Below, piece by piece: positions 6,484 to 51,961 of a stretch of 64,000 nt of DNA. The translations under genes and the position numbers were made by a program. A model generated the notes under the pieces. The model had not been told where the DNA came from and did not search any database. It saw only the letters and a list, made by a program, of their open reading frames with translations. Numbering within the stretch: position 1 is the stretch's first letter; each line of letters opens with the position of its first letter. The DNA is from Alphaproteobacteria bacterium (lineage in GTDB: Bacteria; Pseudomonadota; Alphaproteobacteria; MPNO01), in the NCBI GenBank assembly GCA_964291675.2, contig OZ219866.1, forward strand, positions 3,200,001-3,264,000, read 5' to 3'.

Positions 6484-8133
6484 ATGGAGCGGGACATGGA
6501 CGGGATCGAGGCGGTGGATCTGCTCTGCGTGGGCTCGGGGCTGGCCGGGCTCGCGGCGGCGCTCGCCGGCGCGGGGGGCGGGCTAAGAGTTTGCGTCGTC
6601 GAGAAATCGGCCCGCATCGGCGGCGGCAGCGCCATGTCGTCCGGCGGGGTGTGGATCGGGGCGAACCATCACCAGGCGGCGCACGGCCTGTCCGACAGCA
6701 AGGAGGAGACGCGCGCCTATCTCGAATTCATCGCCGGCGGGGCGTCGGTTCCCGAGAACCTCGCGGCGCTCGCCGACAGGTCCGACGAAGCCCTGGGGGC
6801 GTTCGAGGAGCTGGGCGTGTCGCTCCTGCTGCGCCCCCGCGTGCCGGACCAGTTCTACCCCCAGGCGCCGGGCTCGACTTCCGCCGGCCGGTCCTTGAAC
6901 GCCGCGCCGATCGCCCGCGCCGAGCTCGGCGCGTGGTCCGACCTGCTCCAGGACAACCCCTATTTTCCGCCCGGCATGTCGAGCACCGACATGGTCGCCT
7001 GGGGCGGGCTCGGCAGCATGAAGGACTGGGACCCCGACCTCCTGCGCGAGCGGGCCGAGAGCGGCCGGCTCGGCACCGGTCAGGCCATCGTGGGCCAGTT
7101 CCTGGCCGGGCTGAGACGCGCGGGCGTGCCCATCCTGACGGAGTTCGAGGCCGGCTCGCTGATCCTCGACGACGGAAGGGTGGCGGGAGTTCGCGGCCGG
7201 CACGCCGGCCGCCCGGCGGAGATCGCGGCGAGACGCGGCGTCGTGCTGGCGACCGGCGGCTATGAGAGCAACCCGGATCTGGTGGCGCGGTTCGAAGGCG
7301 TGCCCGGCTGGCGCTCCATGTTCCCGGCCTCGATCACCGGCGACGGGATGACCATGGCGAGCGAGATCGGCGCCGCCATCCACCGGGTGCCCGAGAATTT
7401 CTTCTTCTTTCTCGGCTACGACATCCCGGCCGAGCGGCAGGGCGAGCCGGCGCGGTTCCGCATGACCGGCTTCACCGAGCTCAGCTATCCGCATTGCATG
7501 GTGGTCAACCGGGCGGGGCGCCGGTTCTTCGACGAATCGAGCTTCCAGAAGGGGGTGAGGGCGATCAAGGCGTACGACCAGGCGAAGCGCGAGTTCGCCA
7601 ACCTGCCCTGCTTCATGATCTTCGACAGCCGGTTCCAGCAACGCTACTCCTTCGCCGGACGGCCGCCGGGCGCGCCGGCGCCGGAGTGGCTGGCGCGCGC
7701 CGATACGCTCGCCGGACTCGCCGCCGGGCTCGGCATCGACGCATCGGCGCTCGACGAGACCGCCGCCCGCTTCAACCGCGGCGCCGCCGAGGGCCGCGAT
7801 CCCGAGTTCGGCCGCGGCGAGTTCCTGTGGATCCAGGTGCTGTCGGGCGACAGCGCGCATCCGATCCACCCCAACCTGGCGCCGGTCTCCGAGCCGCCGT
7901 TCTACGGCGTCCGCCTGCATCCCAGCGGGTCGAGCTCCGCCGGCCTGCTGACCGACGCCGACGCAAGGGTGCTGCATGTGCGCGGCCACCCCATCGCCGG
8001 GCTCTATGCCTGCGGCGGCGCCGCGGCGCAGACCGATTTCGGGGTCGGCTACCAGGGCGGGCTGCTGCTGGTGCGCGGCATGACCTTCGGCTATCTCGCC
8101 GCGCGCCACGCCGCCTCGGCCGGCGGCGATTGA
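6484..8133 (+). CDS. FAD-dependent oxidoreductase (FAD_binding_2; 3-ketosteroid dehydrogenase/fumarate reductase-like)
   Basis: VGSGLAG Rossmann motif, GGGSAMSSGGVW, VVLATGGY, GDG and IAGLYACG. Confidence 0.85.
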   Translation: MERDMDGIEAVDLLCVGSGLAGLAAALAGAGGGLRVCVVEKSARIGGGSAMSSGGVWIGANHHQAAHGLSDSKEETRAYLEFIAGGASVPENLAALADRSDEALGAFEELGVSLLLRPRVPDQFYPQAPGSTSAGRSLNAAPIARAELGAWSDLLQDNPYFPPGMSSTDMVAWGGLGSMKDWDPDLLRERAESGRLGTGQAIVGQFLAGLRRAGVPILTEFEAGSLILDDGRVAGVRGRHAGRPAEIAARRGVVLATGGYESNPDLVARFEGVPGWRSMFPASITGDGMTMASEIGAAIHRVPENFFFFLGYDIPAERQGEPARFRMTGFTELSYPHCMVVNRAGRRFFDESSFQKGVRAIKAYDQAKREFANLPCFMIFDSRFQQRYSFAGRPPGAPAPEWLARADTLAGLAAGLGIDASALDETAARFNRGAAEGRDPEFGRGEFLWIQVLSGDSAHPIHPNLAPVSEPPFYGVRLHPSGSSSAGLLTDADARVLHVRGHPIAGLYACGGAAAQTDFGVGYQGGLLLVRGMTFGYLAARHAASAGGD

Positions 8134-17649: not shown

Positions 17650-17771
17650 CCGCCGCGCCGCGTCCCGCCGGGACGCCGGGCCGGATTCGGGGCGAATGGG
17701 GGTTTTGCGCGGGCGGCTTACCATTTGCGGCACGCTCTTGAGGCGATGGATAAGTCAACAATGCTGACCAT

Positions 17772-17787
17772 TGTTTCACGTGAAACA
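17772..17787. promoter_or_regulatory. parS centromere-like site (ParB binding)
   Basis: Exact match to the 16-bp palindromic consensus TGTTTCACGTGAAACA. Confidence 0.85.
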
Positions 17788-17997
17788 TTAAATAATACAG
17801 GTTTCGGATGCGTAATCAGGCCGTATCAGCGCTTGTCAGGATTTGTATGGAGTGGGTGTTTTCTGCTTTATTCCAATAGCTTGCGGATGTATCGGATTGC
17901 CATTCGGTGGCTAGCGTTTCCCCCTCTGATCCACGGTTGACTTTCATGTGTTGAGGTTCTAGATGATATTTCGAGAGATTTTAGAGAGGGTGTCTCT

Positions 17998-19230
17998 ATG
18001 TCAACACTGTCCGGAAAACGGGTCGCCCAGCTCAAGCTCACATTGAATAAGCGCAGCGTCGAGGCCCTCATGCCGGCCGACAAACCCTTCATCGCCTGGG
18101 ACGACAGGCTGACGGGGTTCGGGGTCAGGGTACAGCCCTCGGGGGTGCGGTCCTATCTGGTGAACTACCGCGCCTCGGGCGGCGGCAGGCGGGCCGCCAA
18201 CCGGCGGCTCGTCATCGGCCGGCACGGGCGGGTCTCGGCAGAGCAGGCAAGACGCATCGCCCACGAGACGCTCGGCAAGGTCGCCGCCGGGGAGGACCCG
18301 GCGGAGGGGCGCACCCGGTCGCGGTCGACGCCCACGCTGCGCGAGGCCTTCGAGGAGTACCTGTCGATGGGGCCGGAGAGGAAGCCGCGCACCGTCGAGG
18401 TCTACCGGAGGACGGTGTATCACGATCTCGAGCCCTGGCTCGACCGGTCGCTCAACACAATCTCCCGCAAGGACGTCGAGCAGTGCTTCAACCGGCTGAC
18501 CTCCGAGATCGGCTGGGTGGGGGCCAACTCGGCGCTCATCATGCTGGGGGCGCTGTACCGGCGGCAATGCGTCGACGTCCAGGGTCTGCACAACCCGGTG
18601 GCGCAGTGGCGCGCGGCGGGCGGGCGGCTGCACCGCCAGCGGCGGCGGCGCATCCAGCCTCCGGCCGAGGTTCTGCCGCGCTGGCACAGGGGGATCGAGA
18701 AGGGGGTTCGCAACCCGGTGGCGCGGGATGCGCTGCGGCTCGGCCTCTACACCGGCATGCGCCATTCCGAGGTGCTGGAGCTACGCTGGGACATGGTGGA
18801 CCTCGATGCGATGACGCTGACGGTCGAGGAGACCAAGTCGGGCGAGCCGCTGGAGATCCCGATCGTCCGGCAGGTCGGGGAGATCCTCCGACGCCGCGCG
18901 GCCGAGCGCGGGAACTTTCCGGCGGAGAGCCGCGTCTGGGTGTTCCCGTCGGAGACCAGCGCCTCGGGGCGGCTCGTGACGACGCAGCAGCTGAACGCGC
19001 GGATCGGCGAGGCGGGCGGTGCGAAGTTCTGGTTCCATGCGCTGCGCAACTGCTTCATCACGGTGGCGGACCGGGAGCTGATGCTGCCGACCAGTCTCAC
19101 CAAGCGGCTGGTCAACCATGCGAGGCCCAGCGACGTCACCGAGGGCTACGCGTCGGACTGGACGGCGGACCAGCTCCGCGAGGCCGCGCAGCGCATCGCC
19201 GATCGCATCGATGAGCTGATCAAATGTTGA
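17998..19230 (+). CDS. Tyrosine integrase with N-terminal arm-binding domain
   Basis: WDDRLTGFGVRV arm domain. Catalytic residues in TGMRHSE, TKSG, FHALRN, VNH and EGY. Confidence 0.92.
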   Translation: MSTLSGKRVAQLKLTLNKRSVEALMPADKPFIAWDDRLTGFGVRVQPSGVRSYLVNYRASGGGRRAANRRLVIGRHGRVSAEQARRIAHETLGKVAAGEDPAEGRTRSRSTPTLREAFEEYLSMGPERKPRTVEVYRRTVYHDLEPWLDRSLNTISRKDVEQCFNRLTSEIGWVGANSALIMLGALYRRQCVDVQGLHNPVAQWRAAGGRLHRQRRRRIQPPAEVLPRWHRGIEKGVRNPVARDALRLGLYTGMRHSEVLELRWDMVDLDAMTLTVEETKSGEPLEIPIVRQVGEILRRRAAERGNFPAESRVWVFPSETSASGRLVTTQQLNARIGEAGGAKFWFHALRNCFITVADRELMLPTSLTKRLVNHARPSDVTEGYASDWTADQLREAAQRIADRIDELIKC

Positions 19231-19634
19231 GCTCAACATTTTGACTATGCACTTATCGGTCGTGCGCAGCAGGACCGATAAGAGCATTGAGCTGAGCCGC
19301 ACGGCGGAGCGGTGACTCCGAGCTACGGCAAAGTATCCGCTCAGCAAGAGTCGACTACGCCAGGAAGTCACAGAAATGGGCGCGCGGTCCGATTTCATGG
19401 TTTAACTTGTCCACAAATTCGGTTGTTCCGGTGAGGAACTGACGACCGCGAGCGGGAGAACGAAAAAAGAAGGCAATTACATACCTAACTGTGCAAACAC
19501 AGAAACCAAACTGTCCCCAACGGCATTCCAACCGGAGACTACAGGACCATCACTGATCCAAACAGGCTAACTGTGAAAACCGTCCAAAAAAACACCATAA
19601 GCCTAAGACCAAACCCCCACAAAAAACACCTTGC

Positions 19635-19663
19635 TTGACCTCCTTAGATCGCCCTGCTATTCG
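19635..19663 (+). promoter_or_regulatory. sigma70-type promoter of the tRNA-like gene
   Basis: TTGACC, 17-nt spacer, TATTCG with an extended -10 TG. Ends 8 nt before tRNA position 1. Confidence 0.6.
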
Positions 19664-19671
19664 TTCAACGT

Positions 19672-19759
19672 CTAGTAGTGGCGAAAATGGTAGACGCGAC
19701 CGATTACCAATCGGTTAAGTGTAATGCTTGTGGGGGTTCGAGTCCCTCCTACTAGACCA
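19672..19759 (+). tRNA. Atypical class II tRNA: Leu-type body, anticodon ACC (Gly), encoded CCA
   Basis: Acceptor CTAGTAG/CTACTAG plus A73 and CCA; D-arm GCG-AAAATGGTAGA-CGC; anticodon arm ACCGA-TTACCAA-TCGGT; 16-nt variable region with a stem; T-arm GGGGG-TTCGAGT-CCCTC. Confidence 0.85.
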
Positions 19760-19822
19760 GCGGGGACAGACTTCGGCATTGCTGATGTTTGGTCCCCGCA
19801 CTTCTATTTATCCACCTACAAT

Positions 19823-20167
19823 CTACTCCCCGCCGCGTTCGACCGCCTTCAAATCAGTCAACACCGAAACAGCATTGTCTATCAGATAACCCTTGGTCTG
19901 GACCAATGAATCCCCGCTATCGGAAAATACCGAGTCCATCTCGCCTTTCATTCCTTCCAAAGCCTCAATATCACGATCCGCAAGAGCATTGCCGACGTGC
20001 CCGATAAACGAGATAAGTCCATCAACCGATATATCCGAACTATCCTCCTTCAACCCGGCTAATTCCTTCACTCGTTCTAACTCTTTCAAGTATTTCCCTT
20101 TCCTCAAATCTCGCAACAAGTCCTTGAACCAATTAGGTCTCCGCTTTGCTGACTGTAGAATTGTCAT
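19823..20167 (-). CDS. Hypothetical protein (low-GC cargo)
   Basis: 114-aa ORF with a GGGGA RBS, divergent from the transposase. Confidence 0.6.
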   Translation of the reverse strand: MTILQSAKRRPNWFKDLLRDLRKGKYLKELERVKELAGLKEDSSDISVDGLISFIGHVGNALADRDIEALEGMKGEMDSVFSDSGDSLVQTKGYLIDNAVSVLTDLKAVERGGE

Positions 20168-20208
20168 CTTTCCCCACTAAAATTTATCAAACAATCACCA
20201 ATAAGCCC

Positions 20209-20237
20209 TTGACAAAAGCACCATAAAAGCCTATATT
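20209..20237 (+). promoter_or_regulatory. sigma70 promoter of IS1595 transposase
   Basis: TTGACA, 17-nt spacer, TATATT. Confidence 0.7.
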
Positions 20238-20265
20238 AACACCATCAAACAAGGGATATTAGACG

Positions 20266-21201
20266 ATGAAAGCGCCCGGCAAATCGGACAGAGACGGCAT
20301 CACAATAATTCAATTATTCAAGATGTTTCCTGATGATGATACCGCTCAGGCTTGGTTTGAAGAAAAGCGGTGGGGAAAAGACAAAGATAACCCGACTTGC
20401 CCCAAGTGTGGCACCATTGACAAGACCAAGCGCACTCCGACACACACTATGCCCTATTACTGCAATTCGTGCCGGAGAGGTTTCAGTGTCCGCACCGGAA
20501 CCGCAATGCAGAAATCTCAAATCGGCTACCAGAAATGGGCAATTGCGATCTATATGACCATTACCAGCCTGAAAGGGGTTTCCTCAATGAAGCTCCATAG
20601 GGAATTGGGGATAACCCAAAAGTCAGCTTGGTATATGGAGCATCGCATTCGCACTGGCTTTGGTGGCGTTGATCTGCCTTTCGCCGGACCGGTCGAAGCG
20701 GACGAAACCTATATCGGCGGGAAGGAAAAGAACAAGCACAAGTACAAGAAGCTGAATGCCGGACGCGGCGGGGTCGGCAAGAGTATTGTTGCTGGCATTA
20801 AGGGTCGCAAGACCAAACAGATTACCGCCAAAGTCGTTTATGAAACCTCTGCAATGACTTTACAGGGTTATGTCCGGGCGAACACCAAAGAAGGCACGAT
20901 GGTCTATACCGACGAAAGCAAGTCCTACAAGGGTCTGCCCTATCACCAGTCAGTCAATCATACCGCCAAGCAATGGGTTGTCGGACAAGCCCACACAAAC
21001 GGGATGGAGAATTTCTGGTCTATTTTCAAGCGAGCGTATCACGGAACTTTCCACCGGATGAGCGCAAAGCACCTGCATCGCTATGTCAATGAATTCGCCG
21101 GTCGGCACAATATCCGGGAAATGGACACCAAGGACCAGATGACGGCGATCTTCCAAGGGATGGTCGGCAAGAGCCTGCCCTATGCCGATCTGGTGGCTTG
21201 A
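20266..21201 (+). CDS. IS1595-family transposase
   Basis: CPKC...CNSC zinc ribbon, KGVSSMKLHRELG HTH, VEADETYIGG, YTDE and HTNGMENFWSIFKR. Confidence 0.95.
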   Translation: MKAPGKSDRDGITIIQLFKMFPDDDTAQAWFEEKRWGKDKDNPTCPKCGTIDKTKRTPTHTMPYYCNSCRRGFSVRTGTAMQKSQIGYQKWAIAIYMTITSLKGVSSMKLHRELGITQKSAWYMEHRIRTGFGGVDLPFAGPVEADETYIGGKEKNKHKYKKLNAGRGGVGKSIVAGIKGRKTKQITAKVVYETSAMTLQGYVRANTKEGTMVYTDESKSYKGLPYHQSVNHTAKQWVVGQAHTNGMENFWSIFKRAYHGTFHRMSAKHLHRYVNEFAGRHNIREMDTKDQMTAIFQGMVGKSLPYADLVA

Positions 21202-21234
21202 CAAGCCGTTTCCCTTCGTCCTAGCCTTTTCCCT

Positions 21235-21386
21235 GCTATCGCACATAGACGCGCTGAGTCGGGTCGCCCGCTGAATAGAACAGCCGCAAGACCCGGCAGG
21301 GGTAGCTCCCCCGCCCGGCGAATAGGCGGGGTCTCTCACTTTCTGTGTGCGATAGCAACGGCCCGACACCATTCGGGCCGGTTGCT
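21235..21386 (+). ncRNA. Candidate structured RNA/leader, copy A
   Basis: 14-bp closing stem (21235-21248 with 21343-21356), GGTAGCT core, following GGCCCGA...TCGGGCC hairpin, and upstream TTGACA-18-TAGCCT. Confidence 0.5.
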
Positions 21387-21409
21387 GACTGGCGCAATGG
21401 AGGCGGGAA

Positions 21410-21832
21410 ATGAAGAAGATCGTGCTGGCGGGGATGGTTGCGGCCCTTATGGGTTGGAGTGGTTCGGTGGAGGCAAAGACTACCAAGTGTATTTTGAAGG
21501 GAGTCGGTTTTTCCGATGTAGATGCTCGCCAGTCTGCGATACTGGAACAAGTAGGAGCTACTTGCGAAACGATCATAGATGGACGCGCGATACAAAGACG
21601 GCAATCAGATACTACCGATATTTGCGGGCAAGCTAAGCAGGCTTGTAGCAATGTAATTTATTCCTGTAGGCGGAACGCGAGACTCGCACAAGCCGAACGT
21701 TATATGTGCCAGAATGCCACCAGTCATCGCATTTTGCTAAGTTGTCTCAAGACAAGAAACACGGCGGCAAAGCATTGCCGGTCTGCGACAAATTGCTTGA
21801 GGCAATACGGTTGTATGGAAAGTGTCCAATGA
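21410..21832 (+). CDS. Secreted cysteine-rich hypothetical protein
   Basis: Signal peptide MKKIVLAGMVAALMGWSGSVEA, 10 Cys, GGAGG RBS. Confidence 0.75.
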   Translation: MKKIVLAGMVAALMGWSGSVEAKTTKCILKGVGFSDVDARQSAILEQVGATCETIIDGRAIQRRQSDTTDICGQAKQACSNVIYSCRRNARLAQAERYMCQNATSHRILLSCLKTRNTAAKHCRSATNCLRQYGCMESVQ

Positions 21833-22137
21833 CTGTCGTTCATGCGCTGGTGCTTGTGGCCTATAGCGCACTGGCTCAAGAAGTCACTCGGACTAAGATC
21901 ATGTCTTTTCACAAGAACCATTTCTCTTGTGTTCAGACTATGAATAAGGAACGGTTCAGGGGTCGCCGGTTACAATTCAATGAGAACTACGTCTGCCTAC
22001 AGCTACAGGATTCCCACATAGGCTCACAGCTGCTACGTATGGGCGGGAATGATCGGATTGTGATTCATGGAACCAAGCGGTTCTTTAACAAGCCAAAGCG
22101 GGATAGGTGGTATCAGAAGCGGAAATGGGATAGGTGA
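21829..22137 (+). CDS. Small hypothetical, probably secreted
   Basis: ATGA overlap with the previous stop; hydrophobic N-terminus ending in ALA. Confidence 0.55.
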   Translation: MTVVHALVLVAYSALAQEVTRTKIMSFHKNHFSCVQTMNKERFRGRRLQFNENYVCLQLQDSHIGSQLLRMGGNDRIVIHGTKRFFNKPKRDRWYQKRKWDR

Positions 22138-22334
22138 AGGAGGATGAAGGGATGACGAAAACGAAGGTTGTCAAAGGCGAGAACTTTGATATTGATCTTC
22201 AAGCCGAAATCAACGGACAATGGGAAACGGTTGTCACCATTCCTTGTTCATCGGAGGAACAGCATGAGAAACTTTCGAAAGGAATACTTGATTGGGGGCA
22301 CTATGTAATGAATGAAACTCGGTGTAGTCCTTAA
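22134..22334 (+). CDS. Small hypothetical protein
   Basis: GTGA overlap with the previous ORF; alternative ATG behind GGAGG. Confidence 0.45.
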   Translation: MKEDEGMTKTKVVKGENFDIDLQAEINGQWETVVTIPCSSEEQHEKLSKGILDWGHYVMNETRCSP

Positions 22335-22801
22335 TCCCTGTTCGTCCTTTTTGTCATATGTCTTGACGAATCGAAGCTGGTCTCGATCTAACGTGTAGAT
22401 TTGATCCACTTCACCGTTTGAACGGGTTTGGTGGAAAAGTCAATAGACAATAGTCTATTGTCTACCGGTAGGGCCTTGTTCCGTTTCGCACTGGACTTCT
22501 TCGCTGGCTCTGGCCCATTTGTGGTTGGATCGGATCACGAAGAGACAGACGACGCGGACGATGCCCAGTAAACGCAATCAAACGTATCAAATCGATGTCG
22601 AGGTAGTCACCCTGAATTCGGGTCAGCCGGCAGTTCGCCTTGCATGCCTTTGGTGCAATTGTCTCAGCCCCTCCCCGTTCCGGTCCGCGATCGCCCTCAA
22701 TTCTATCGCTCCTCGATGCAGCACAGCTGGCACAGGCTCTTTCAATAGACCTCTTTCGCGCCGTGACATGCGGTTGAAATCGCGGCTGCCGGGGCCTTTA
22801 G

Positions 22802-23134
22802 TCATGGTCCGCTCAAATTCTTGAGTTCTTCTTCGTAAAACTTCTTTCGCAAAGCCTTGTAAACCCGTTCGTATTCCCACTTCCCGGCAATACAGGTCGG
22901 CCAATAAGAGGCGTCTTTTCTGGAACAGTGGCTTAGCCTCTTTTTTCCTTCAGACGTTCCGGTTATGGCCTTGAAGGCTCGATAATAAGCCCGTTTGTAC
23001 GCCTTTTCGGACAGCTTTATTGCCGCAATCATCTCCTCGGCAAGAAGAACGTCCTCCTTCTCGCCGGAAGCCGCTTCGCTCGTCGTCGTAACCACCAACC
23101 CGACTACCACTGACACCAAGAGGACTATACGCAT
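22802..23134 (-). CDS. Secreted hypothetical protein
   Basis: Signal peptide MRIVLLVSVVVGLVVTTTSEA and GGAGG RBS. Confidence 0.7.
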   Translation of the reverse strand: MRIVLLVSVVVGLVVTTTSEAASGEKEDVLLAEEMIAAIKLSEKAYKRAYYRAFKAITGTSEGKKRLSHCSRKDASYWPTCIAGKWEYERVYKALRKKFYEEELKNLSGP

Positions 23135-23158
23135 GCCACCCTCCCCGGCTTGTGTGTC

Positions 23159-23310
23159 GGCCCCGGCTGGTGCCGGGCCGTGTCATCGTCGAGCAGAGAG
23201 CAAGAGGTTCTACCTTTTCGCCCGTGGCAGCGTAGCTACTCCCTTCCGTCGATCGGGCTCTTCGATTCAACAGAAGACGCAACGTGGCGGGCTCCGCTCG
23301 ATCAAGTGAC
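23159..23310 (-). ncRNA. Candidate structured RNA/leader, copy B
   Basis: Closing stem TCGAGCGGAG/CTCTGCTCGA, GTAGCT core and following GGCCCGGCACCAGCCGGGGCC hairpin. Same layout as copy A. Confidence 0.45.
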
Positions 23311-23735
23311 GGGAAGATGCTCCGTCGAACCGAGAAAAGCGTCAACCCCCCTGTGAGTCTTGCGGGATTTCGACGGCGATGCTACGGTGAGAAATGGTAG
23401 TCTCGGCCACAAGGGTCGGGGCACTGAATCACCGATGGGGCGGCATCCGAATCGGTTCACACAGGTCCAGCATGGATAGGCATCCCACGGCAGACTTTCC
23501 CTCGGAACGAACCTGTGACGGAACGAATTGCGTAAACCGGCCAAGCGTGCGCTCACCGGTAGGCGAGGAAACATATGGAAGACCCGCGTGCTCAATGCTT
23601 TAGGGAACTTCGAAGGCTCGAAAGTCTAGGCCATGAGGGCCTTCAGTATCTTTTTCACGAGAACCGGGAAACCGCTGAAGGCGGGATCGATGCCTGGATA
23701 ATCTGGGATCGGACCGGACAGGTCTTGGCAAGCGC

Positions 23736-23999
23736 ATGAGCCGGATCGTACGAAAAAGGAGGTCCGGATGCCGAATTGGGATAGCAACCGATGTTGCTGT
23801 TCGGGTGGCCGATCTTAAATCGGCCGGGAAAGTACCAAATGACGCGAAGTACAGAACGCTTTCTTCCGGATTGACATACAAACAGGCGAACGCTGAAGAG
23901 AAAGTACGACGACAGCGTTGTGGGCCGCATTGCGATGGAGAGTTGGGCGGTAGACCGAAGCCAGGAAGAGTATGGAGCGTCTATAGGATTGACTGGTGA
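23736..23999 (+). CDS. Small basic hypothetical protein (paralog of 24693)
   Basis: CRIGIATDV...RTL..GLTY..A...E...CGPHC pattern shared with the ORF at 24693. Confidence 0.65.
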   Translation: MSRIVRKRRSGCRIGIATDVAVRVADLKSAGKVPNDAKYRTLSSGLTYKQANAEEKVRRQRCGPHCDGELGGRPKPGRVWSVYRIDW

Positions 24000-24234
24000 T
24001 CGTTCAGTCGGCCACCAGATCCCGATACATCAGCCTGCAGCCCGTGAGCGCTGCAACGCCAGTCATCGTCTGCGCGTCCGTCTAAGCGCGCCGGGCGTTG
24101 TGCTGGCCGGAGAACTCTTTGACGTATCGTTCGGGGTACGCCTTCGAGATCTTGCGGTAGACGCATTTGTGCGCTCGTTTCAGCGTCGCAGAGAATCTCG
24201 CTATTCCCTCCGTATGAACGTCCCCGCGGACATA
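24000..24234 (-). pseudogene. IS1595 transposase C-terminal remnant
   Basis: YVRGDVHTEGIARFSATLKRAHKCVYRKISKAYPERYVKEFSGQHNAR, degenerate relative to the intact copies. Confidence 0.8.
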
Positions 24235-24692
24235 GACCGCCGCCGGCCCGCACGGCTGGGGAAAGGGAACGGCGGATACCTGCAAGGAGATGTGGAGGCA
24301 GGTCGCCGCGGACATCAATTCCCTCCCGCCCGACGTGCGCACCCGGCAATACACCTCGGCGATCGTCAAGTCCGCGCAGGCGATGTACCGCTGGTGCGAG
24401 GCGAACATGGCCTCCTGCGCGCGCCAGAGGGAGGAGGTCGAGCCGCGGGGATGCGCCCTGATCCCAGGGGTCGTCACCTATACCCTGAATCGAAAATTGT
24501 CCTGGACGGTGAACTGCACGAACACGACCTTGATGCTGCCGGGGAAGTGCTGAGCGGTGCTGCGCGACCCTCTCACTTATCTGAGGGTGAACGAGGCGGC
24601 GTGTCGGGGGAATTAGGAGTTCTGCCCCTTTCTTATTTACCCGCCCGGCCTGAGCGGGTTCAACCGTGCCGGTGGATCGGGAGATTGGCGAT

Positions 24693-25055
24693 ATGAAGTG
24701 CTGGGTCGGCATCTCTATGGACGTTGCGGCTCATGTCGCCCCGCTCAAGGCCGCGAACTTGGTCCCGGCCGACGCCTCGTGGAGGACGCTGGCCGAGAAG
24801 CTTACCTACGACGAGGCCGTGGTTCTCGAATACTCCGAGCGAAGGGAATGCGGCCCCCTTTGCCGGGGCGCGGGTCGCGCCGAAGAAGCGCCGGATCGCC
24901 ACCTCGGGTCCGTGATCTCCGGGGCGGCGTGCCCCGCCAACCCGAGACCCTGCAACCCCCAACCCGACACCGACCAACTCAAATCACGGCGCTACGAAGG
25001 CGTCGAACACCCCCATGCGCGCGCAAAATCAGGCGACAATCGCTCTGTTCCATGA
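24693..25055 (+). CDS. Hypothetical protein, paralog of 23736 (C-terminus possibly degenerate)
   Basis: MKCWVGISMDVAAHVAPLKAANLVPADASWRTLAEKLTYDEA...CGPLC. Confidence 0.5.
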   Translation: MKCWVGISMDVAAHVAPLKAANLVPADASWRTLAEKLTYDEAVVLEYSERRECGPLCRGAGRAEEAPDRHLGSVISGAACPANPRPCNPQPDTDQLKSRRYEGVEHPHARAKSGDNRSVP

Positions 25056-25652
25056 ATAAGTCGGGCTACCACGTCGAGCCGTACACCCCCCATGCGACGG
25101 CGCCGATGGGCACATGGGGGAACGTCGGCGGCGCACTCTCAGCGCAGACCGTCGCGAGCTCGTTCAAGAGCGACTTCTCGGCACCATCCACTACCGCTAC
25201 AACGTGGTGGCCACCGCAGTCCCCGCGAACGGCTATGTCTACGAGGTTCGCGGAAACCATTTCTACGACACCTACATTCCTTCCGGGGCAACAACCGAGC
25301 GCTGGCGGCAGCGCGCCGATCCGCCGGGATGGCTGGGCGAGGGCAACCGGACGGAGCTTCTGTCCCGTACGAGCGCCACGGGCGACTGGGGCTACGTCAC
25401 CCACTCCAACAGGGTCGAATACCTGAGGGCCTTCACAGCGGGCACGGCCGAGCATACAGAGCCGATCTGGACTCGGCTCGGGACGGCGGCGGAGGGACGA
25501 CCAACGTCTTCGACTGGGCGAGACGCTGGAAGACTACGAGGATCGGGTCCCGGCGGACGATGCGATCGCCGCCGCGGCCGTGGAGGCGAGGCGCGAGGCG
25601 CATGCGGGGTGCACCGGCGATGGCTGATCACATGAAATCCCGTCGACGCCCC

Positions 25653-26225
25653 TCAGCGCGCCGCGCGCAGGGACAACTGCGATGACAGATGGCGCAGGTT
25701 TCGGTGAATGAACTCGATAAAAAAAGATATGTCTTCCATATAGTGCCGCGCTTCGAGTCGCTCCACCTGCTCATACGAGTAGCGCGCCTTATAAACCATC
25801 ACGTCTTGGTCGAAATACTCGAGAATATCTTCCAAAGTGGACAGCCTACGGCGGGCAGGCGGTACGGGAGGGTTGGCGGGGTCTTCGAAGTGCAGGTAGG
25901 CGACCATCTTAGTGTTGCAGCCTATGTCCTGGGAGAGCCTGTTGAGGCGCACCTTCTCCAGATTGGGCAGGAGGCTGTACAGTTTTACCAGACCGTGCGT
26001 GTTGTCGTATGGAAGTTCACTTATCCGGAGCATCAGCTTGAACATTAGCTCTAGGGATGTTCCTAAATTGAAGTGCGAGACCGCCTTCATGGACGCGCAG
26101 GCGTCGGAGTTCTCGTCCACATTGGCCTTTCGTATCCACGCTTCCAAGAGGCGGGCGGCCTCCTTGAAGTCATGAATATTTTGGCAGAGAAACGTGAGGG
26201 CGAGCCTCTGTTCTGGGTTAGACAT
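25653..26225 (-). CDS. HEPN-like domain protein
   Basis: FNLGTSLELMFK...THGLVKLY...ARYSYE pattern; lower GC than its flanks. Confidence 0.6.
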   Translation of the reverse strand: MSNPEQRLALTFLCQNIHDFKEAARLLEAWIRKANVDENSDACASMKAVSHFNLGTSLELMFKLMLRISELPYDNTHGLVKLYSLLPNLEKVRLNRLSQDIGCNTKMVAYLHFEDPANPPVPPARRRLSTLEDILEYFDQDVMVYKARYSYEQVERLEARHYMEDISFFIEFIHRNLRHLSSQLSLRAAR

Positions 26226-26952
26226 TATTGGGTTTCCTTCTCTAGCGCGACCCTGGAAGACTACGAGGACCGGGTCGCGGCCGACGATGCGATCTCCGCC
26301 GCCGCGCTCAAGGCCTCGCGGGACGCGCACGGGGTGTGCGCCGGGCATAGCTGATGGGGGACGCTACATATCGCCCAACGTAGCCGCCCCCGGGCGAAAC
26401 GGCACGATCACGCCGTTGTCGCCGGTTTTCCTCTCCGCGATTTCTCCGTCATCGGTACCACCGCCGAAGACATTTCGGCAAGGCGGTGGAGCATAGCCGG
26501 TCGGGTTACTCCGGCGCCCCCTGTTGGCGATCATAGTTCGATTGCGGCGCCGGCACCGCGTTCATCACCGCATGGCTCGCATGGGTGTGCCGAGAGTCGT
26601 GCGGCAAGAAACGTATAGGCGCCGGGGATGCGATCAATTCGCACGCATGCGACTGTCGCCGGTACCACCATTGGCATCGGTCGCTGCCGCGCCGACTCAA
26701 CCCCGTCTCCGCGCGCGGCGCATCGCGCGCTGCCGGTGCCATCGCCGCCACCCGTTCCTTCCATTCGAGGCGGCGCGATGGTCGTGTCCCCACGATGGGT
26801 CTGACCACCGTGACGAGTTGCGCCCGGCCATCGTCATCCTCCTCCATCGCCTGTGCGTATCTCTCCATCCCCGTCACCAGATTGCGCGTCCCCGCGCACG
26901 CGCCGGCGGGAGCGAGGGTCTGGCCGGGAGCGGGGCGGCCGGGCGGCGCTGC

Positions 26953-47425: not shown

Positions 47426-47488
47426 GGGAATTATATACTTGACTAAATAAGTCGCGATCCCCATATTCAGTGTGAAGGGAGACGCGAC

Positions 47489-48466
47489 ATGGCCAAGGCC
47501 CCCGGAAAGAACCACCGCGAAGGCATCACCGTCATGGAGATGGCCGACCTGTTCCCGACCGATGAGGCGGCGCGGGAATGGTTCGAGGCGAAGGTCTGGC
47601 CGGACGGGCGGCATTGCCCGCGCTGCGGATCGGTCGAGACGGTCGAGTGCAAGGGAACCCCGCCGATGCCCTACTGGTGCCCGGCGTGCAAGCGGCATTT
47701 CAGCGTCCGTATCGGCACCGTCATGGAGGGATCGCCCCTTCCCCTGCGGAAGTGGGTCTATGCGATCTACCTGCACCTGACGAGCCTCAAGGGCGTCTCC
47801 AGCATGAAGCTGCATCGCGACTTGGGCGTGACCCAGAAAACCGCGTGGTTCATGCTCCAGCGCATCCGCAAGGCGTTCGAGCGCGACGACGACGATCCGC
47901 CCTTCGGCGGGCCGGCGGAAGCGGATGAGGTCTACTTGGGCGGGCTGCGGAAGAACATGCACAAGGACAAGCGAGAAGAGCTGACGGGCCGCGCCGCGGT
48001 CGGGAAAGAGGTCGCGGTCGGCGTGAAGGATCGCTACACCAGCGAGGTCCGGGCCCGGCATGTCCACGGCACGGACGCCGCGCATCTGGCGGGCTTCGCC
48101 GTCGAGACGGCCAAGTTCGGCGCGACGGTCTACAGCGACGATGCCGCCGTTTATCAGACGCTGGCGCCGTGGTACGATCACGAAAGCGTCAATCACTCGG
48201 CTGGCGAGTATGTCCGCCAGCAGGCGCACAAGAACGGGATCGAGAGCTTCCGGTCGATGCTGAAACGGGCGCACAAGGGCATCTATCACAAGTTCAGCTC
48301 GAAGCATCTGCATCGATACATCGCCGACTTCGCCGGGCGTCACAACGTCCGCGAGGCCGACACGCTGTCGCAGATGGCCGGGCTGGCGTTCGGGATGGCG
48401 GGGAAGCGGCCGACCTACGCCTCGCTGATCGCTGACAACGGCTTGCCGAGTAGGGCGCGGGCGTGA
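47489..48466 (+). CDS. IS1595-family transposase
   Basis: CPRC/CPAC, KGVSSMKLHRDLG, EADEVYLGG, YSDD and NGIESF. Confidence 0.95.
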   Translation: MAKAPGKNHREGITVMEMADLFPTDEAAREWFEAKVWPDGRHCPRCGSVETVECKGTPPMPYWCPACKRHFSVRIGTVMEGSPLPLRKWVYAIYLHLTSLKGVSSMKLHRDLGVTQKTAWFMLQRIRKAFERDDDDPPFGGPAEADEVYLGGLRKNMHKDKREELTGRAAVGKEVAVGVKDRYTSEVRARHVHGTDAAHLAGFAVETAKFGATVYSDDAAVYQTLAPWYDHESVNHSAGEYVRQQAHKNGIESFRSMLKRAHKGIYHKFSSKHLHRYIADFAGRHNVREADTLSQMAGLAFGMAGKRPTYASLIADNGLPSRARA

Positions 48467-48480
48467 CGCCGCAAGAACAA

Positions 48481-48729
48481 TCAGTGAAGGTGCGGGCTGG
48501 GGTCGATGCCGGCGCGAAATTTCTCGAGCTCTCGCGCAAGGATGCGGCGCGCCCGAGGCGACAGGGACTGAAACGCTTCCTGTTCTGGAAGCGCATCGAC
48601 GATCCTGCACATGAGCGCGCCAACATCCGGCCCCAAGGCGCCGATTAAGCTGCTGATGATCGTCGCCTGAACCGCGACGATGGAGCGAAGTTCCTCCACT
48701 TCGTCGCGCAAGGGCCGCTTCGTGGTCAT
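48481..48729 (-). CDS. Small hypothetical protein
   Basis: 82 aa with a GGGAGA RBS, directly downstream of the R-M gene. Confidence 0.45.
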   Translation of the reverse strand: MTTKRPLRDEVEELRSIVAVQATIISSLIGALGPDVGALMCRIVDALPEQEAFQSLSPRARRILARELEKFRAGIDPSPHLH

Positions 48730-48741
48730 CGCGTTCTCCCT

Positions 48742-51534
48742 TTAGGCGACTCTGTTGCAAACAGACGGTTCCCGGCTGATTGCGGCCCGCCATTTCGCCA
48801 CTTGTAAGCCGTTTAGGCGCGCAACACGGGCGGCGGCCGAATCGATTTCGATTCGCGCCGGGTCGTCAGCCATGTTTGGCAACGGCTCCAGCCTCGCTTT
48901 TCTGGTTCTCTCGAAGGCGTCAATGAGCGGCTGCAAATCAACCGATTTCGGATTGGGGCATGGAAGGGCGCGCAAGTTTTCAAGAGGAAATGCCGGATAG
49001 GTCAGTTCTTTCGTCCGGCGAGCCAAAAGACCTAATATGCCCGGCGTTGAGTTGAGCCATGCAGCCCATGCCTTTTCGGTTTGCGCCGTGCCTCCATCTA
49101 TAGGGGTGATGGGGCACCATGCGCTTCTAAGTGCCATCTCTCCGGTCCAGACCGCAGTCGTCCGAACAAGATTGATGCGCATTTTGTTGCCGACGAGCAG
49201 CCGTCCGGCCTTCGGCCACAATCGGCGCTCGGCATACCGTTCCTTGCCCTCCCTGGGCCGCATACGGCGATCCGGCGTTGTCTCGATAGACTGCTGCCGA
49301 TCGGTCTCATGCCGCCATAGCAGGGCATATTCGCCGGTCATGCTTTCATCGCTGGGGAACGCATCACGGATTCGCCGACCTTCCGGCCCTACATGCGCCA
49401 TGTCGCGCAACGGGCGAAGCCGGTCCCCCATGAGCGCCTCTATTTCGTCAATCGCCTCGATCAGTTCGGCGTCGTAGAACAGGGCGGCAATCCAGTCGCC
49501 GCGCTTCATCCGGGCGGCGGGCCACACGGTCTCCCGTCCCCACTCCGCCAGATCGCCGTTGTCCCGCAAGCAGCTTTCCAGTGCCAGCGCCTCGGCCTTG
49601 TTCGTCGGGTTGCGGTGAAGCTGAATGAAGCGCGTCGGCTTCGCTTCGTCCCTGGCGGCCGTCGCAACGATCATGCTTTCGTGAATCCTGGTATTCCCCG
49701 AGAAATAGATCCGCGTTGGATCGTGTGCTGTTATGACGGTCTCGATTTGGAAGCGCGTCGCCAGCAGTTCGCGCTCCGCCTGCCCGGAAGGCGCAGTCAT
49801 GGCGGTTGTGGGAAGAACCGTCGCCAGCGTCCGCGCTCCGGTTTTCAGTATCTTGTCGGCCAAGGGAGTGAAGAATGTTCGCGCACTGGTCTGGTCTATG
49901 CCTTTGGCGGCGTCCTTGTCCTGCGCCTCAAGCCGCTCAGCTATATCCTGTTCGCGCTTCTGCACCTGTCTCCGCGCCTCCGGCGTGAGTTGCCGGTTGC
50001 GAATGTCGTTCCGCGTAAAGGGTGGGTTCATTATCACCAAGTCAAACGGATCCGAAATGTCCTTCCCAAATTGCTCACCTTCGCTACGGCCAGTTTCAAT
50101 TTCCTCCTCTGCCTTCGGACGGCCCAAATCCAGCGCCAGTTCGCCGGGGCTGTCCTGCAACAGCAGTTCAAGGGACCCTGCCCATGCGCGCTCGGCGTCA
50201 CCATCTGGGAGCACTCCGTGCTTCGCCGTATAGAGCGGCATTCGGTGATAATCGACGCGCGGCGAACTGAGTGTGAGATTGCAGGCCGCGAGCTGTACGG
50301 CGTGGCGGTTGATGTCGAGGCCATGCAACACCCGCTGGACCATCTCGAGATGCACCATCTCAATCGATGTGCGGTCGTTGGTGGTCGCGCTATGAAGGTC
50401 GCGGACGGCGTGTTGTGCGGCCAGCAACAGCGTTCCGGTCCCGCAAGCCGGGTCGATGATCCGTAGCCGTGCGATTGCCTCGGGATCGCGCCAGTCGCAA
50501 TCCACATGTGAAAGGGCAAGGCGTGCGAGCAACATGGCGGCTGGCGGGGTCGTATAGAACGATCCGTCATACCGCGCACTTTCGAGCAATCGGTGGTAGA
50601 TCGGCCCCGCAACGTCGTATTCCAAGGCCCCGAGGGCGTGTGCGCAAGAGTCCGCAGCGCAGCGCAGCGTTTCGAGAACCCACTCGGTTTCCACTTCGTC
50701 AGGAAGCGCGAGCAAACAGGCGAGAGCCGGTTCAAATATCGGCTTGTAATCGACGGCAAGGATTTGCTCCCATCGTCTCGTCAACAGGCTCTTCGCCGTC
50801 TCGTTCGGCGTTGCCTGTGGAAGCGGAACATCTGACCAGATTGCTTCGAGTCGCCGGTCAAGAAGACAACCGTTAGCGAGCATCACGGACGCTATACGCA
50901 GAACCCTGTCATCGCCTGCTTTCGGCGGCTGCATGTTGAGAGCCAAGGCGAGCAACTCGGTAGCCGCCTCGCGGTGGCTCACCCAGATATTCGCGGACTC
51001 CACGATGATCCCTGTCAGCAGGGTTTCTATGTCGCCGCGGCGATCGGAAACGTTACGGATTTCCGTCGCAAGGGTTGCCGCCCCTCCTCGGCGCCATGCT
51101 TCGCCGCCCGCGCCGGCGAACACCCACTCCAGCCCCTGCGTTTGGCGCAAACAGGATGCTATTTCGGGAGGCGTGAGATCGCCCCTGATCTCATCTGGGT
51201 AGCAAAGAGCGAGAGCAAGCCGCTTCGGTGCGTTCTGTGGCTGATCCTTCGTCCACCGGCGCGCTTGCTCGGACGCTTCTCGTTTCGCCTTGTCGCTAGT
51301 CCCGAATTTCGCTTCGCCGAATATCGTGTGAGGGCAATCGAGAGTCGGACGAATTGTCAGGTCCGGCGTCTTGCTCCGCCCGTGGACACGCTGTTCAGGG
51401 ACCGTCCGGAGATTGTGGTCTTCGGTCAATACCCCGGCAAGGATCGTGTTAATTGCCTCTTCCCGGCTTCCCTTGGCCGCCCCAGACTGCCCCTGTCTCA
51501 GCCTATCCCGGTTTTCGCCGTCCGTCTCGACCAT
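48742..51534 (-). CDS. Type IIG-like fused restriction endonuclease / N6-adenine methyltransferase
   Basis: N-terminal PDLTI...EAK (PD-(D/E)xK), FYTT, IDPACGTGTLL, VIMNPPF and a C-terminal TRD-like region. Confidence 0.87.
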   Translation of the reverse strand: MVETDGENRDRLRQGQSGAAKGSREEAINTILAGVLTEDHNLRTVPEQRVHGRSKTPDLTIRPTLDCPHTIFGEAKFGTSDKAKREASEQARRWTKDQPQNAPKRLALALCYPDEIRGDLTPPEIASCLRQTQGLEWVFAGAGGEAWRRGGAATLATEIRNVSDRRGDIETLLTGIIVESANIWVSHREAATELLALALNMQPPKAGDDRVLRIASVMLANGCLLDRRLEAIWSDVPLPQATPNETAKSLLTRRWEQILAVDYKPIFEPALACLLALPDEVETEWVLETLRCAADSCAHALGALEYDVAGPIYHRLLESARYDGSFYTTPPAAMLLARLALSHVDCDWRDPEAIARLRIIDPACGTGTLLLAAQHAVRDLHSATTNDRTSIEMVHLEMVQRVLHGLDINRHAVQLAACNLTLSSPRVDYHRMPLYTAKHGVLPDGDAERAWAGSLELLLQDSPGELALDLGRPKAEEEIETGRSEGEQFGKDISDPFDLVIMNPPFTRNDIRNRQLTPEARRQVQKREQDIAERLEAQDKDAAKGIDQTSARTFFTPLADKILKTGARTLATVLPTTAMTAPSGQAERELLATRFQIETVITAHDPTRIYFSGNTRIHESMIVATAARDEAKPTRFIQLHRNPTNKAEALALESCLRDNGDLAEWGRETVWPAARMKRGDWIAALFYDAELIEAIDEIEALMGDRLRPLRDMAHVGPEGRRIRDAFPSDESMTGEYALLWRHETDRQQSIETTPDRRMRPREGKERYAERRLWPKAGRLLVGNKMRINLVRTTAVWTGEMALRSAWCPITPIDGGTAQTEKAWAAWLNSTPGILGLLARRTKELTYPAFPLENLRALPCPNPKSVDLQPLIDAFERTRKARLEPLPNMADDPARIEIDSAAARVARLNGLQVAKWRAAISREPSVCNRVA

Positions 51535-51961
51535 CGCGCCCCTCCCGTGGTAGGAAGGGCGGACGCTACCGGCCTACGGATATTTAGGCAAGTATATAAT
51601 TCCCGAATTCTTCCCGCGCACAGCTAGAGATCCCGGCCGATGAGGAGGAGGGACCGCAATGCCCGTGAGCGTGAGCACGATAATCGGTGAGAGGACTTCA
51701 CGGCATTCGATGGACTCCGGGGCCGGTATGGGCGGCAATCGCAAAGCGGTCATTAGCAGCGTGATCGAGTACCCGACACCGCACCATGGCGAGCTACACC
51801 CATCTCGCGTGCAAATTCTGGCCGCATTTGACGGAGATTCCGGCGTTATTTGACGGTCCGGGTCCGGTTTTCAGCCGGCCCTGAGGATCGTCGGCGTGGC
51901 CAGCACTCTGGATTAAAGGGCACGATTAGGCCCAGACCTGGGCCGGGATTGAGGATCTTCT

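What the first reader, a model, noticed from the sequence alone, without database searches (positions are those of the whole stretch)
19472..22465. The odd tRNA and secreted-protein genes appear to be passengers of an IS1595 element
Seen: GGCAATTACATACCTAACT at 19472 matches 15 of 19 positions of the clear IS1595 TIR at 47426 and marks the start of a low-GC block. The block holds the tRNA, a 114-aa ORF, the transposase, a structured RNA and three small ORFs. Known: IS1595 members form transporter ISs with protein cargo. Inference: a tRNA as IS cargo would spread a decoding modifier. I could not find a well-matched right TIR.
Basis: partly seen in the sequence, partly recalled or inferred. Interest (0 to 1): 0.7.

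Follow-up and report, generated by a model that had tools for sequence, protein, structure and literature searches.

The report
Jumping gene carrying an odd tRNA
A cargo-carrying IS1595 jumping gene in this bacterium holds, just inside its left end, a leucine-type tRNA with a glycine anticodon, and related jumping genes in many other bacteria carry similarly mismatched tRNAs that could change how codons are read.

Summary
GGCAATTACATACCTAACT at 19472 is a genuine IS1595-type end. The motif GG.AATTA[TC]ATAC occurs 4 times in the 4.8-Mb genome, each time at an end of one of its three IS1595 copies.

In a second public run, one contig joins 19471 directly to 22427. The skipped block, 19472-22426 (2955 bp), starts at the first base of that end. 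It holds the tRNA, ORF114, the transposase, a structured leader RNA and three small ORFs.

Among 122 well-bounded relatives (IR at least 16/20, perfect 8-bp duplication), median size is 2939 bp. Twenty have more than 250 nt between left end and transposase, and 5 hold a tRNA-like gene inside.

These internal tRNAs are odd: arginine-like or serine-like bodies carrying serine, glycine or leucine anticodons. The tRNA here has a leucine-type body with anticodon ACC.

Still open:
- No right inverted repeat or target duplication exists at 22426, so canonical transposition of the block is not shown.
- Charging and decoding by the tRNA are inferred, not tested.

Notes from this scan report similar IS1595 elements with mismatched tRNAs on other DNA. 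I found no paper describing tRNA cargo in IS1595 elements.

The parts
17998..19230 (+). P4-type tyrosine integrase of the genomic island that holds the element (context, not part of the IS)
   Evidence: Pfam Arm-DNA-bind_3 and Phage_integrase. Backbone similarity to relatives ends near 17650-17790. Among the listed matches, 19242-26900 has no match in 30 relatives apart from the RNA repeat.
19472..19490 (+). Left terminal inverted repeat (IRL) of the IS1595-family element E1
   Evidence: 15/19 to the end at 47426 and 16/20 to the E3 end (read). The motif occurs 4 times in the genome, all at IS1595 ends. The run X2 joint starts at 19472. The flank AAAAAGAA is A-rich like the family's targets.
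19567..19575 (+). Second copy of CTAACTGTG, the inner part of the IRL
   Evidence: The only two copies in the window are at 19485 and 19567. An 8-mer of the inner repeat recurs in the leader in 12 of 86 relatives, against 1 of 86 shuffled leaders.
19593..19660 (+). tRNA upstream region, a diverged duplicate of the transposase promoter region
   Evidence: CACCA(A)TAA..GCC occurs at 19593, 20196 and 20219 only. Repeat families D1/D4 are 75% identical.
19672..19759 (+). Class II tRNA with a leucine-type body, anticodon ACC, discriminator A73 and encoded CCA
   Evidence: ARAGORN. Rfam 50.8 bits. Its four best matches among 44 host tRNAs are the tRNA-Leu genes. The D-arm motif GGTAGACGC is found only in host tRNA-Leu genes and this gene.
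19760..19811 (.). Hairpin GCGGGGAC...GTCCCCGC followed by a T-rich tail, between the convergent tRNA and ORF114
   Evidence: Read. The simple scan lists only the inner stem at 19773-19785.
19823..20167 (-). ORF114, of unknown function, divergent from the transposase
   Evidence: No Pfam or NCBIfam family. Best Atlas score 0.77. No tblastn hit in 240 related loci.
20209..20237 (+). Transposase promoter, TTGACA-17-TATATT
   Evidence: 11 of 12 consensus positions.
20266..21201 (+). IS1595-family DDE transposase, 311 aa, intact
   Evidence: PF12762 at 2.5e-36 and PF12760. 49% identical to the window's second copy. Closest relatives are 71-77% identical.
21210..21394 (+). Structured leader RNA directly upstream of the secreted-protein operon
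   Evidence: nhmmer finds 6 copies in the genome and 13 in 240 loci, and all 13 lie inside IS bounds. The consensus fold has 27 pairs, 13 with compensatory changes. Weak Rfam match to sRNA-Xcc1: 26.8 bits against a gathering score of 53.
21410..21832 (+). ORF140, with an N-terminal signal-peptide-like stretch and many cysteines
   Evidence: Translation. No family.
21829..22137 (+). ORF102, whose start overlaps the ORF140 stop (ATGA), with a signal-peptide-like N-terminus
   Evidence: Read. No family.
22152..22334 (+). ORF60, the last small ORF of the operon
   Evidence: No family.
22426..22427 (.). Right border of the polymorphic block, with no inverted repeat and no target duplication
   Evidence: Run X2 contig joins 19471 to 22427 (depth 7.5, side 30, both 0), while other X2 contigs bridge 22426/22427. 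No repeat found.
22802..24288 (-). Remnant of a second, inverted IS1595 element (context)
   Evidence: Transposase C-terminal fragment at about 23986-24288. Leader RNA copy at 23160-23329. ORF110 with a signal-peptide-like start at 22802-23134. GC content is 0.56-0.67 over the transposase fragment.
47426..51604 (+). E2, the window's second IS1595 transporter element, used as the reference for the ends
   Evidence: Ends match 18/19. Transposase at 47489-48466. The cargo includes a 930-aa adenine methyltransferase-like protein.

Best explanation
Window 19472-22426 is a 2.96-kb passenger-carrying ('transporter') insertion sequence of the IS1595 family. It lies in the cargo of an integrase-bounded island.

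**Layout**
- The left end is a genuine terminal repeat at 19472.
- Between that end and the transposase gene the usual short leader is expanded to 794 nt. It holds a complete class II tRNA gene (encoded CCA, hairpin behind it) and a divergent 114-aa ORF.
- Downstream of the transposase lie a conserved structured leader RNA and an operon of three small ORFs, two of them with signal-peptide-like starts.
- So the tRNA and the secreted-protein genes are both passengers.

**The tRNA.** It has a leucine-type body (D-arm, long variable arm, A73) and the anticodon ACC. By established identity rules, LeuRS does not read the anticodon. The inference is therefore that the tRNA is charged with leucine and reads the glycine codon GGU, which is rare in this host.

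**The right end.** It has no inverted repeat and no target duplication. This copy is therefore probably crippled, or moved or was lost by a non-canonical event.

**Shown:** the left end, the contents, the polymorphic block, and the family pattern. **Inferred:** expression, charging, decoding and mobility.
For: **The end and the block**
- The end motif occurs 4 times in the genome, all at IS1595 ends.
- A run X2 contig joins 19471 to 22427, while other X2 contigs carry 19522-26462 unchanged.
- GC content from the end through the cargo is about 0.40-0.58 (0.60-0.65 over the structured RNA at 21200-21399), the same as in the transposase gene.

**Fit to the family**
- Block size is 2955 bp against a family median of 2939 bp.
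- 20 of 122 strict relatives have more than 250 nt between left end and transposase, for example 839, 696 and 504 nt.
- 5 of 122 hold a tRNA-like gene inside. Examples are L117 and L159, each with 20/20 ends and a perfect duplication. Their Rfam tRNA scores are 57-66 bits.
- All 10 tRNAs in the flanks of those loci have ordinary anticodons and sizes for their class. The inside ones are class I with serine anticodons ACT or GCT, arginine-like with GCC, or serine-like with leucine anticodons.

**The tRNA itself**
- It is nearest to host tRNA-Leu.
- It shares a Leu-only D-arm motif and A73.
- A second Leu-like ACC tRNA, in a Chitinophagaceae prophage-like contig, has the identical anticodon loop. 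Of 20 stem pairs, 8 show compensatory changes and none is broken.

**Signs that the tRNA is integrated into the IS leader**
- The inner part of the end repeat recurs 82 nt further in.
- The tRNA's upstream region duplicates the transposase promoter region.
Against: - No right inverted repeat: the best match is 12/19.
- No 8-bp duplication. The left flank is AAAAAGAA, the last 8 bases of the block are TGAACGGG, and the right flank is TTTGGTGG. In the looser set of 176 relatives, most do have a duplication.
- The X2 joint rests on one contig with 30 letters on its shorter side, and the tool reports 'between: not known'.
- No close homologue's DNA could be read. Accessible relatives are at most 58% identical.
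- tRNA density in cargo (5 in 271 kb) is no higher than in flanks (10 in 704 kb).
- The element's own transposase uses GGT at the invariant Gly223 and Gly279. A Leu-inserting ACC tRNA would therefore damage it.
- No expression data are available.
Confidence: 0.65

Rival explanations
1. The end at 19472 does not belong to the 20266 transposase. It is an orphan end, or the far end of the inverted, degraded IS1595 copy whose transposase fragment lies at 23986-24288 on the minus strand. On this reading the tRNA is cargo of that older element or of the island, and the intact transposase gene sits there without ends of its own.
For: - A transposase fragment, a second leader RNA copy and a secreted-protein ORF lie on the minus strand at 22802-24288, pointing towards the block.
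- In L117, L159 and L211 the tRNA lies near the far end on the strand opposite the transposase, as it would here.
- The 20266 gene has no recognisable repeat next to its promoter.
Against: - The fragment is GC-rich (0.56-0.67), whereas the end, tRNA and intact transposase share about 0.40-0.58.
- This reading needs an intact transposase gene with no ends at all. The main reading needs only one lost end.
- The X2 polymorphic block runs from 19472 to 92 nt past the last ORF of the intact element's operon, not to the fragment.
- The block's size equals the family median.
Confidence: 0.15
2. The tRNA-ORF114 segment (about 19604-20207) is a later insertion or rearrangement that split the IS leader. 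It is not selected cargo, and the element has been dead since.
For: - The segment is flanked by CACCA(A)TAAGCC at 19593 and 20196.
- The leader is ten times the family median of 81.5 nt.
- The right end is missing.
- Run X2 also holds a variant that lacks 20024-20725.
Against: - The transposase ORF is intact and has an 11/12 promoter.
- 20 of 122 bounded relatives with perfect duplications also have long leaders.
- The segment's GC content matches the rest of the block.
- Even on this reading the tRNA lies inside the element.
Confidence: 0.1
3. The tRNA does not act in decoding. It is a decoy or shield against tRNA-cutting toxins or defence nucleases, a regulatory RNA, or a decaying copy.
For: - The element's own transposase needs glycine at its GGT codons.
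- Mukai et al. [quoted passage not shown]
- C1-G72 is unlike any of the 16 host Leu, Arg, Gly, Ser and Tyr tRNAs listed.
Against: - The cloverleaf is perfect, with encoded CCA.
- The anticodon loop is identical, with 8 compensatory stem changes, in an unrelated contig. That argues for selection on a tRNA with this anticodon, not for decay.
Confidence: 0.3

Closest known systems
IS1595-family transporter IS (tIS). The ISNwi1-type group with passenger genes is as I recall it from ISfinder and Siguier et al. 2009; neither was read here.
   Same: - DDE_Tnp_IS1595 plus zinc-ribbon transposase.
- An end beginning GG..ATTA.ATAC.
- A size of about 3 kb with passengers.
- The TnCentral preprint states that tIS are restricted to the IS1595 and IS66 families (10.1101/2021.05.26.445724, passage read).
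   Different: - A tRNA gene among the passengers, placed between the left end and the transposase.
- No right repeat and no 8-bp duplication in this copy.
Hybrid-identity (mistranslating) bacterial tRNAs, such as tRNAProX of Streptomyces
   Same: The body of one amino-acid class carries the anticodon of another, and A34 is present. This follows the review PMC11415595, of which I read passages of sections 17 and 23 and the whole of section 18.
   Different: - A leucine-type class II body with the glycine anticodon ACC.
- U33 is kept.
- No dedicated synthetase gene in the block: none of the block's ORFs matches a synthetase family.
- Carried by an insertion sequence.
allo-tRNAs and irregular tRNA polycistrons (Mukai et al. 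2017, PMC5389517)
   Same: These are irregular tRNAs with missense or nonsense anticodons. [quoted passage not shown]
   Different: - This tRNA has the canonical 7/5 acceptor and T-stem arrangement, not 8/4 or 9/3.
- It lies inside an element with a defined end.
sRNA-Xcc1 (Rfam RF02221)
   Same: The leader RNA aligns over the whole 87-position model.
   Different: The score is 26.8 bits against a gathering score of 53, so it is not a member by Rfam's threshold. Here the RNA sits directly upstream of secreted-protein genes.

Membership tests
IS1595 family insertion sequence | DDE transposase with the ISXO2-like domain and an N-terminal zinc ribbon | tested here: met
   PF12762 at 125.4 bits and PF12760 at 25.8 bits.
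IS1595 family insertion sequence | Terminal inverted repeats at both ends | tested here: not met
   The left end is present. For the right end the best match is 12/19.
IS1595 family insertion sequence | 8-bp target-site duplication | tested here: not met
   Left flank AAAAAGAA against TGAACGGG (last 8 bases of the block) and TTTGGTGG (right flank). The X2 joint has 'both 0'.
Transporter IS (tIS) | Passenger genes lie between the ends | tested here: inconclusive
   The genes lie between the left end and the polymorphic right border, but the right end is not a repeat.
tRNA-Leu (bacterial class II) | Long variable arm, discriminator A73 and a Leu-type D-arm | tested here: met
tRNA-Leu (bacterial class II) | A leucine anticodon | tested here: not met
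   The anticodon is ACC.
tRNA-Gly (bacterial) | Class I body with discriminator U73, as in the host's Gly tRNAs | tested here: not met
   88 nt with a long variable arm, A73 and C1-G72. The host's Gly tRNAs have U73.
allo-tRNA | 8/4 or 9/3 acceptor and T-stem arrangement | tested here: not met
   The ARAGORN drawing shows 7/5.
sRNA-Xcc1 (RF02221) | Score at or above Rfam's gathering threshold | tested here: not met
   26.8 bits against 53.
Mistranslating tRNA | Charged with an amino acid that differs from the codon's meaning | not testable with these tools
   Needs aminoacylation assays or mass spectrometry.

The most novel reading that the evidence does not exclude
IS1595 transporter elements are vehicles for hybrid-identity tRNAs: leucine-, serine- or arginine-type bodies with foreign anticodons. 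These act as mobile decoding modifiers that move between phyla by transposition. The copy here would insert leucine at the rare GGU glycine codon of a 70% GC host, and the same elements also spread a conserved leader-RNA plus secreted-protein module.
Probability: 0.3. Interest if true: 0.9.

Novelty: new variant of a known kind. Interest (0 to 1): 0.72.

Why it matters
Passenger-carrying IS1595 elements are known, and so are a few natural tRNAs whose body and anticodon disagree.

What seems undescribed in the papers I could search is the combination: a simple insertion sequence with mapped ends that carries such tRNAs.

If the tRNAs are charged as their bodies suggest, a 3-kb transposon could move a change in codon meaning between unrelated bacteria. 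That makes the question of natural, transferable mistranslation testable with defined, small DNA pieces.

The same elements also point to an uncharacterised structured RNA that precedes secreted-protein genes.

Tried and rejected
**Right repeat.** Searched five ways; nothing above 12/19.

**Close homologues' DNA**
- The first genome-contig scan gave at most 58% identity.
- The single metagenome scan gave at most 43%.
- The plasmid protein search found all 417 records below 60%.
- DNA of the block has no match in plasmids or phages.

**The tRNA elsewhere.** An exact 30-mer of it was found in neither genome contigs nor viral contigs.

**Function of the passengers**
- No Pfam or NCBIfam family for ORF114, ORF140, ORF60 or ORF110; for ORF102, NCBIfam on its own frame and Pfam on the longer ORF143 reading.
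- The Atlas best score for ORF114 is 0.77, below a useful level.
- No tblastn hit in 240 loci for ORF114, ORF140, ORF143, ORF66 or ORF110.

**Expression.** No RNA holder was listed among the runs.

**Runs X3-X5.** They cover only short parts of the stretch and give no information on the block.

It suggested the tRNA's anticodon arm matches a neighbouring small RNA. I found no such match here. The only match is an 11-nt complementarity between 19612-19622 and the tRNA's T-arm side.

**Extra Rfam check.** On 13 further related loci it found 0 tRNAs, so tRNA cargo is occasional in this sample.

**Recoding of the element's own genes.** Rejected: GGT encodes invariant glycines of the transposase.

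**Supplements.** Supplementary files of Mukai et al. 2017, which may list loci of irregular tRNAs beside transposases, could not be seen.
Full report
**What is there**

The window is about 70% GC.
- A P4-type integrase gene (17998-19230; Arm-DNA-bind_3 and Phage_integrase) opens an island.
- Among the listed matches, the island's interior (19242-26900) matches none of 30 related genomes apart from one 150-nt repeat; 137 weaker matches were not listed.
- The sequence GGCAATTACATACCTAACT starts at 19472, 242 nt after the integrase stop. From about 19400 to 22600, GC content is 0.40-0.58, apart from 0.60-0.65 over the structured RNA at 21200-21399.

The block holds:
- an 88-nt tRNA at 19672-19759 (ARAGORN Gly-ACC; Rfam tRNA 50.8 bits);
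- ORF114 on the minus strand;
- an intact 311-aa IS1595 transposase at 20266-21201, behind an 11/12 sigma-70 promoter;
- a structured RNA;
- three small ORFs, two of them with signal-peptide-like starts.

**Is the 19472 sequence a real IS end?**

Yes.
- It matches the 19-mer at 47426 in 15 of 19 positions. That 19-mer has an inverted partner ending at 51604 (18 of 19), which defines a 4179-bp element, E2.
- The genome holds a third full copy, E3, at C2:1580432-1585213. Its ends match 17 of 19 and its flanks are TTTCGCAT/TTTCGTAT.
- The motif GG.AATTA[TC]ATAC occurs 4 times in 4.8 Mb: the left ends of E1, E2 and E3 and the right end of E2.
- The left flank AAAAAGAA is A-rich, like the family's target duplications.

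**Does the tRNA lie inside the element?**

Three lines of evidence say so.

1. *A polymorphism in another run.* A public run of another study (X2) holds 0.97 of the block's words.
   - Its contigs carry 19522-26462 without a difference.
   - One contig (depth 7.5, against about 22-27 for the filled form) joins 19471 directly to 22427.
   - The skipped 2955 bp start at the first base of the end repeat and stop 92 nt after the last small ORF.
   - The neighbouring contigs break at 22427-22456, as expected for a branch in the assembly graph. That last point is my reading of table 8.
2. *Composition.* The end, tRNA, ORF114, transposase and operon share one GC level, whereas the inverted transposase fragment further right is GC-rich.
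3. *Family anatomy.* A profile-guided scan gave 80 loci with transposases 51-58% identical, from MAGs of many phyla. With the two earlier scans that makes 240 loci.
   - 208 of the 240 had an end-repeat candidate and 176 passed a looser filter.
   - 122 distinct insertions passed a strict filter: ends at least 16/20 and a perfect 8-bp duplication.
   - In the strict set the median size is 2939 bp, so nearly all carry passengers.
   - The median distance from left end to transposase is 81.5 nt, but 20 of 122 exceed 250 nt. E1's 794 nt is unusual, not unprecedented.

Two further details tie the tRNA to the leader.
- The inner part of the end repeat, CTAACTGTG, recurs once, 82 nt further in.
- The tRNA's upstream region is a diverged duplicate of the transposase promoter region: CACCA(A)TAA..GCC at 19593, 20196 and 20219.

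**tRNAs in relatives**

- ARAGORN finds a tRNA in 25 of 240 loci.
- Inside strict bounds there are 5 in 122 elements:
  - L117 and L159, anticodon ACT;
  - L211, GCT;
  - L223, GCC;
  - L186, TAG.
- The looser set adds L105 (ACT) and L178 (GCC). It also adds L104, which holds an ordinary Leu-TAA tRNA inside doubtful bounds.
- L208 (GGA) lies inside an alternative pair of ends matching 17/20.
- Rfam scores these at 39-66 bits and finds a second tRNA in L223, at 8000-8098.
- A further 13 loci gave none.

tRNA density in cargo (5 in 271 kb) is no higher than in flanks (10 in 704 kb), so the number alone proves nothing. The kind differs, though.
- All 10 flank tRNAs have ordinary anticodons and sizes for their class.
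- The inside ones fall into three groups:
  - class I molecules with serine anticodons;
  - arginine-like bodies, with the host-Arg-only motif GGATAGAGC, carrying ACT, GCT or GCC;
  - serine-like class II bodies carrying the leucine anticodons TAG or TAA.
- All the arginine-like ones keep C35. From established identity rules (recalled), C35 is a major ArgRS determinant.

**The tRNA here**

- The cloverleaf is regular: a 7-bp acceptor stem, a 3-bp D stem, a 4-bp variable-arm stem and a 5-bp T stem, with encoded CCA.
- Its four best matches among 44 host tRNAs are tRNA-Leu.
- It shares GGTAGACGC with host tRNA-Leu only, and it has the Leu discriminator A73. Host Gly tRNAs are class I with U73.
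- A pattern scan of 185,579 species' genomes found one more such gene, in a Chitinophagaceae prophage-like contig. The anticodon loop TTACCAA is identical and A73 is shared. Of 20 stem pairs, 10 are the same, 2 changed on one side, 8 changed on both sides and 0 are broken.
- This speaks for a selected tRNA with this anticodon.
- LeuRS does not use the anticodon (established knowledge, recalled), so leucine at GGU is the likeliest outcome. GGU is rare in the host, at 4.8 per 1000 codons against 63.9 for GGC.
- Against a benign role: the element's own transposase uses GGT at the invariant Gly223 and Gly279.

**The other passengers**

- The RNA at 21210-21394 has 6 copies in this genome, including one inside E3 and one at window 23160-23329 on the minus strand.
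- It also has copies in 13 of 240 loci, and all 13 lie inside IS bounds.
- Seventeen copies fold into a common structure of 27 pairs, 13 of them with compensatory changes.
- In 10 of 19 copies the next ORF on the same strand starts with a signal-peptide-like or lipoprotein-like stretch. That count is my reading; no predictor was run.
- The RNA plus secreted-protein genes of E1 are therefore a typical cargo module of this clade.

**What does not fit**

- There is no right repeat and no duplication at 22426.
- The X2 joint has no shared letters ('both 0'), and the tool cannot say whether other letters lie between the two sides.
- Either this copy lost its right end, or the block came or went by a non-canonical event.
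- X2 also holds a variant lacking 20024-20725, which would remove the transposase's start.
- An inverted, GC-rich IS1595 remnant at 22802-24288 offers a rival owner for the 19472 end. I rate this at 0.15, on grounds of composition, parsimony and the X2 block.

**Known or new**

- Transporter IS are described for the IS1595 and IS66 families (TnCentral preprint, passage read).
- Hybrid-identity tRNAs are reviewed in PMC11415595, of which I read passages of sections 17 and 23 and the whole of section 18.
- Mukai et al. 2017 suggest irregular tRNAs may be linked to transposable elements (passages read).
- My seven searches found no paper describing tRNA genes as IS1595 cargo.
- Earlier notes of this scan, which are unchecked AI notes, report seven or eight similar IS1595 elements with mismatched tRNAs in other genomes. 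The scan has therefore seen this pattern before on other DNA. My counts above are independent of those notes.

Noticed in passing
window 47426-51604: A second IS1595 transporter element (4179 bp, ends 18/19). Its cargo includes a 930-aa adenine methyltransferase-like protein with weak matches to type II and BREX methylases. Its flanks CAAATTTT/GAATTCTT are not a duplication.
   Followed up: partly
window 21210-21394 and 23160-23329 (-); loci L008, L189, L202, L208, L211, L217, L223, L235, L238, L240, L249, L252, L253: A conserved structured RNA of about 150 nt (27 consensus pairs, 13 with compensatory changes) found only inside IS1595 bounds in the related loci. It is often directly followed by a gene with a signal-peptide-like start. 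It matches Rfam sRNA-Xcc1 only weakly.
   Followed up: partly
window 22802-24288 (-): A remnant of an inverted IS1595 copy: the C-terminal third of a transposase, a leader RNA copy and a 110-aa ORF with a signal-peptide-like start. No ends were found.
   Followed up: partly
window 20024-20725: Run X2 holds a contig (depth 13) that skips these 702 bases. That would delete the start of ORF114, the transposase promoter and the first 153 codons of the transposase.
   Followed up: no
L254 4833-4921 (-): A second leucine-like tRNA with anticodon ACC, in a Chitinophagaceae contig that looks like a prophage (integrase, recombination genes). It lies next to a tRNA-Trp gene.
   Followed up: partly
L255 9862-9936; L256 11084-11158: Two viral contigs carry arginine-like tRNAs with anticodon ACT and no IS1595 transposase nearby.
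   Followed up: no
L223 6328-6401 and 8000-8098: One bounded IS1595 element (4446 bp, duplication AAAATAAG) carries two odd tRNAs: an arginine-like one with GCC, and a serine-like class II one with the leucine anticodon TAA.
   Followed up: partly
window 19612-19622: An 11-nt stretch upstream of the tRNA is complementary to the tRNA's variable-arm and T-stem junction. This is the only such match in the block.
   Followed up: no
window 22443-22463: A near-perfect palindrome, TAGACAATAG-T-CTATTGTCTA, lies 17 nt right of the polymorphic border. Its role is unknown.
   Followed up: no
window 17650-17990: The island's left junction has no tRNA or known RNA gene. Runs X2 and X5 show rearranged joints at 17750-17789.
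   Followed up: no
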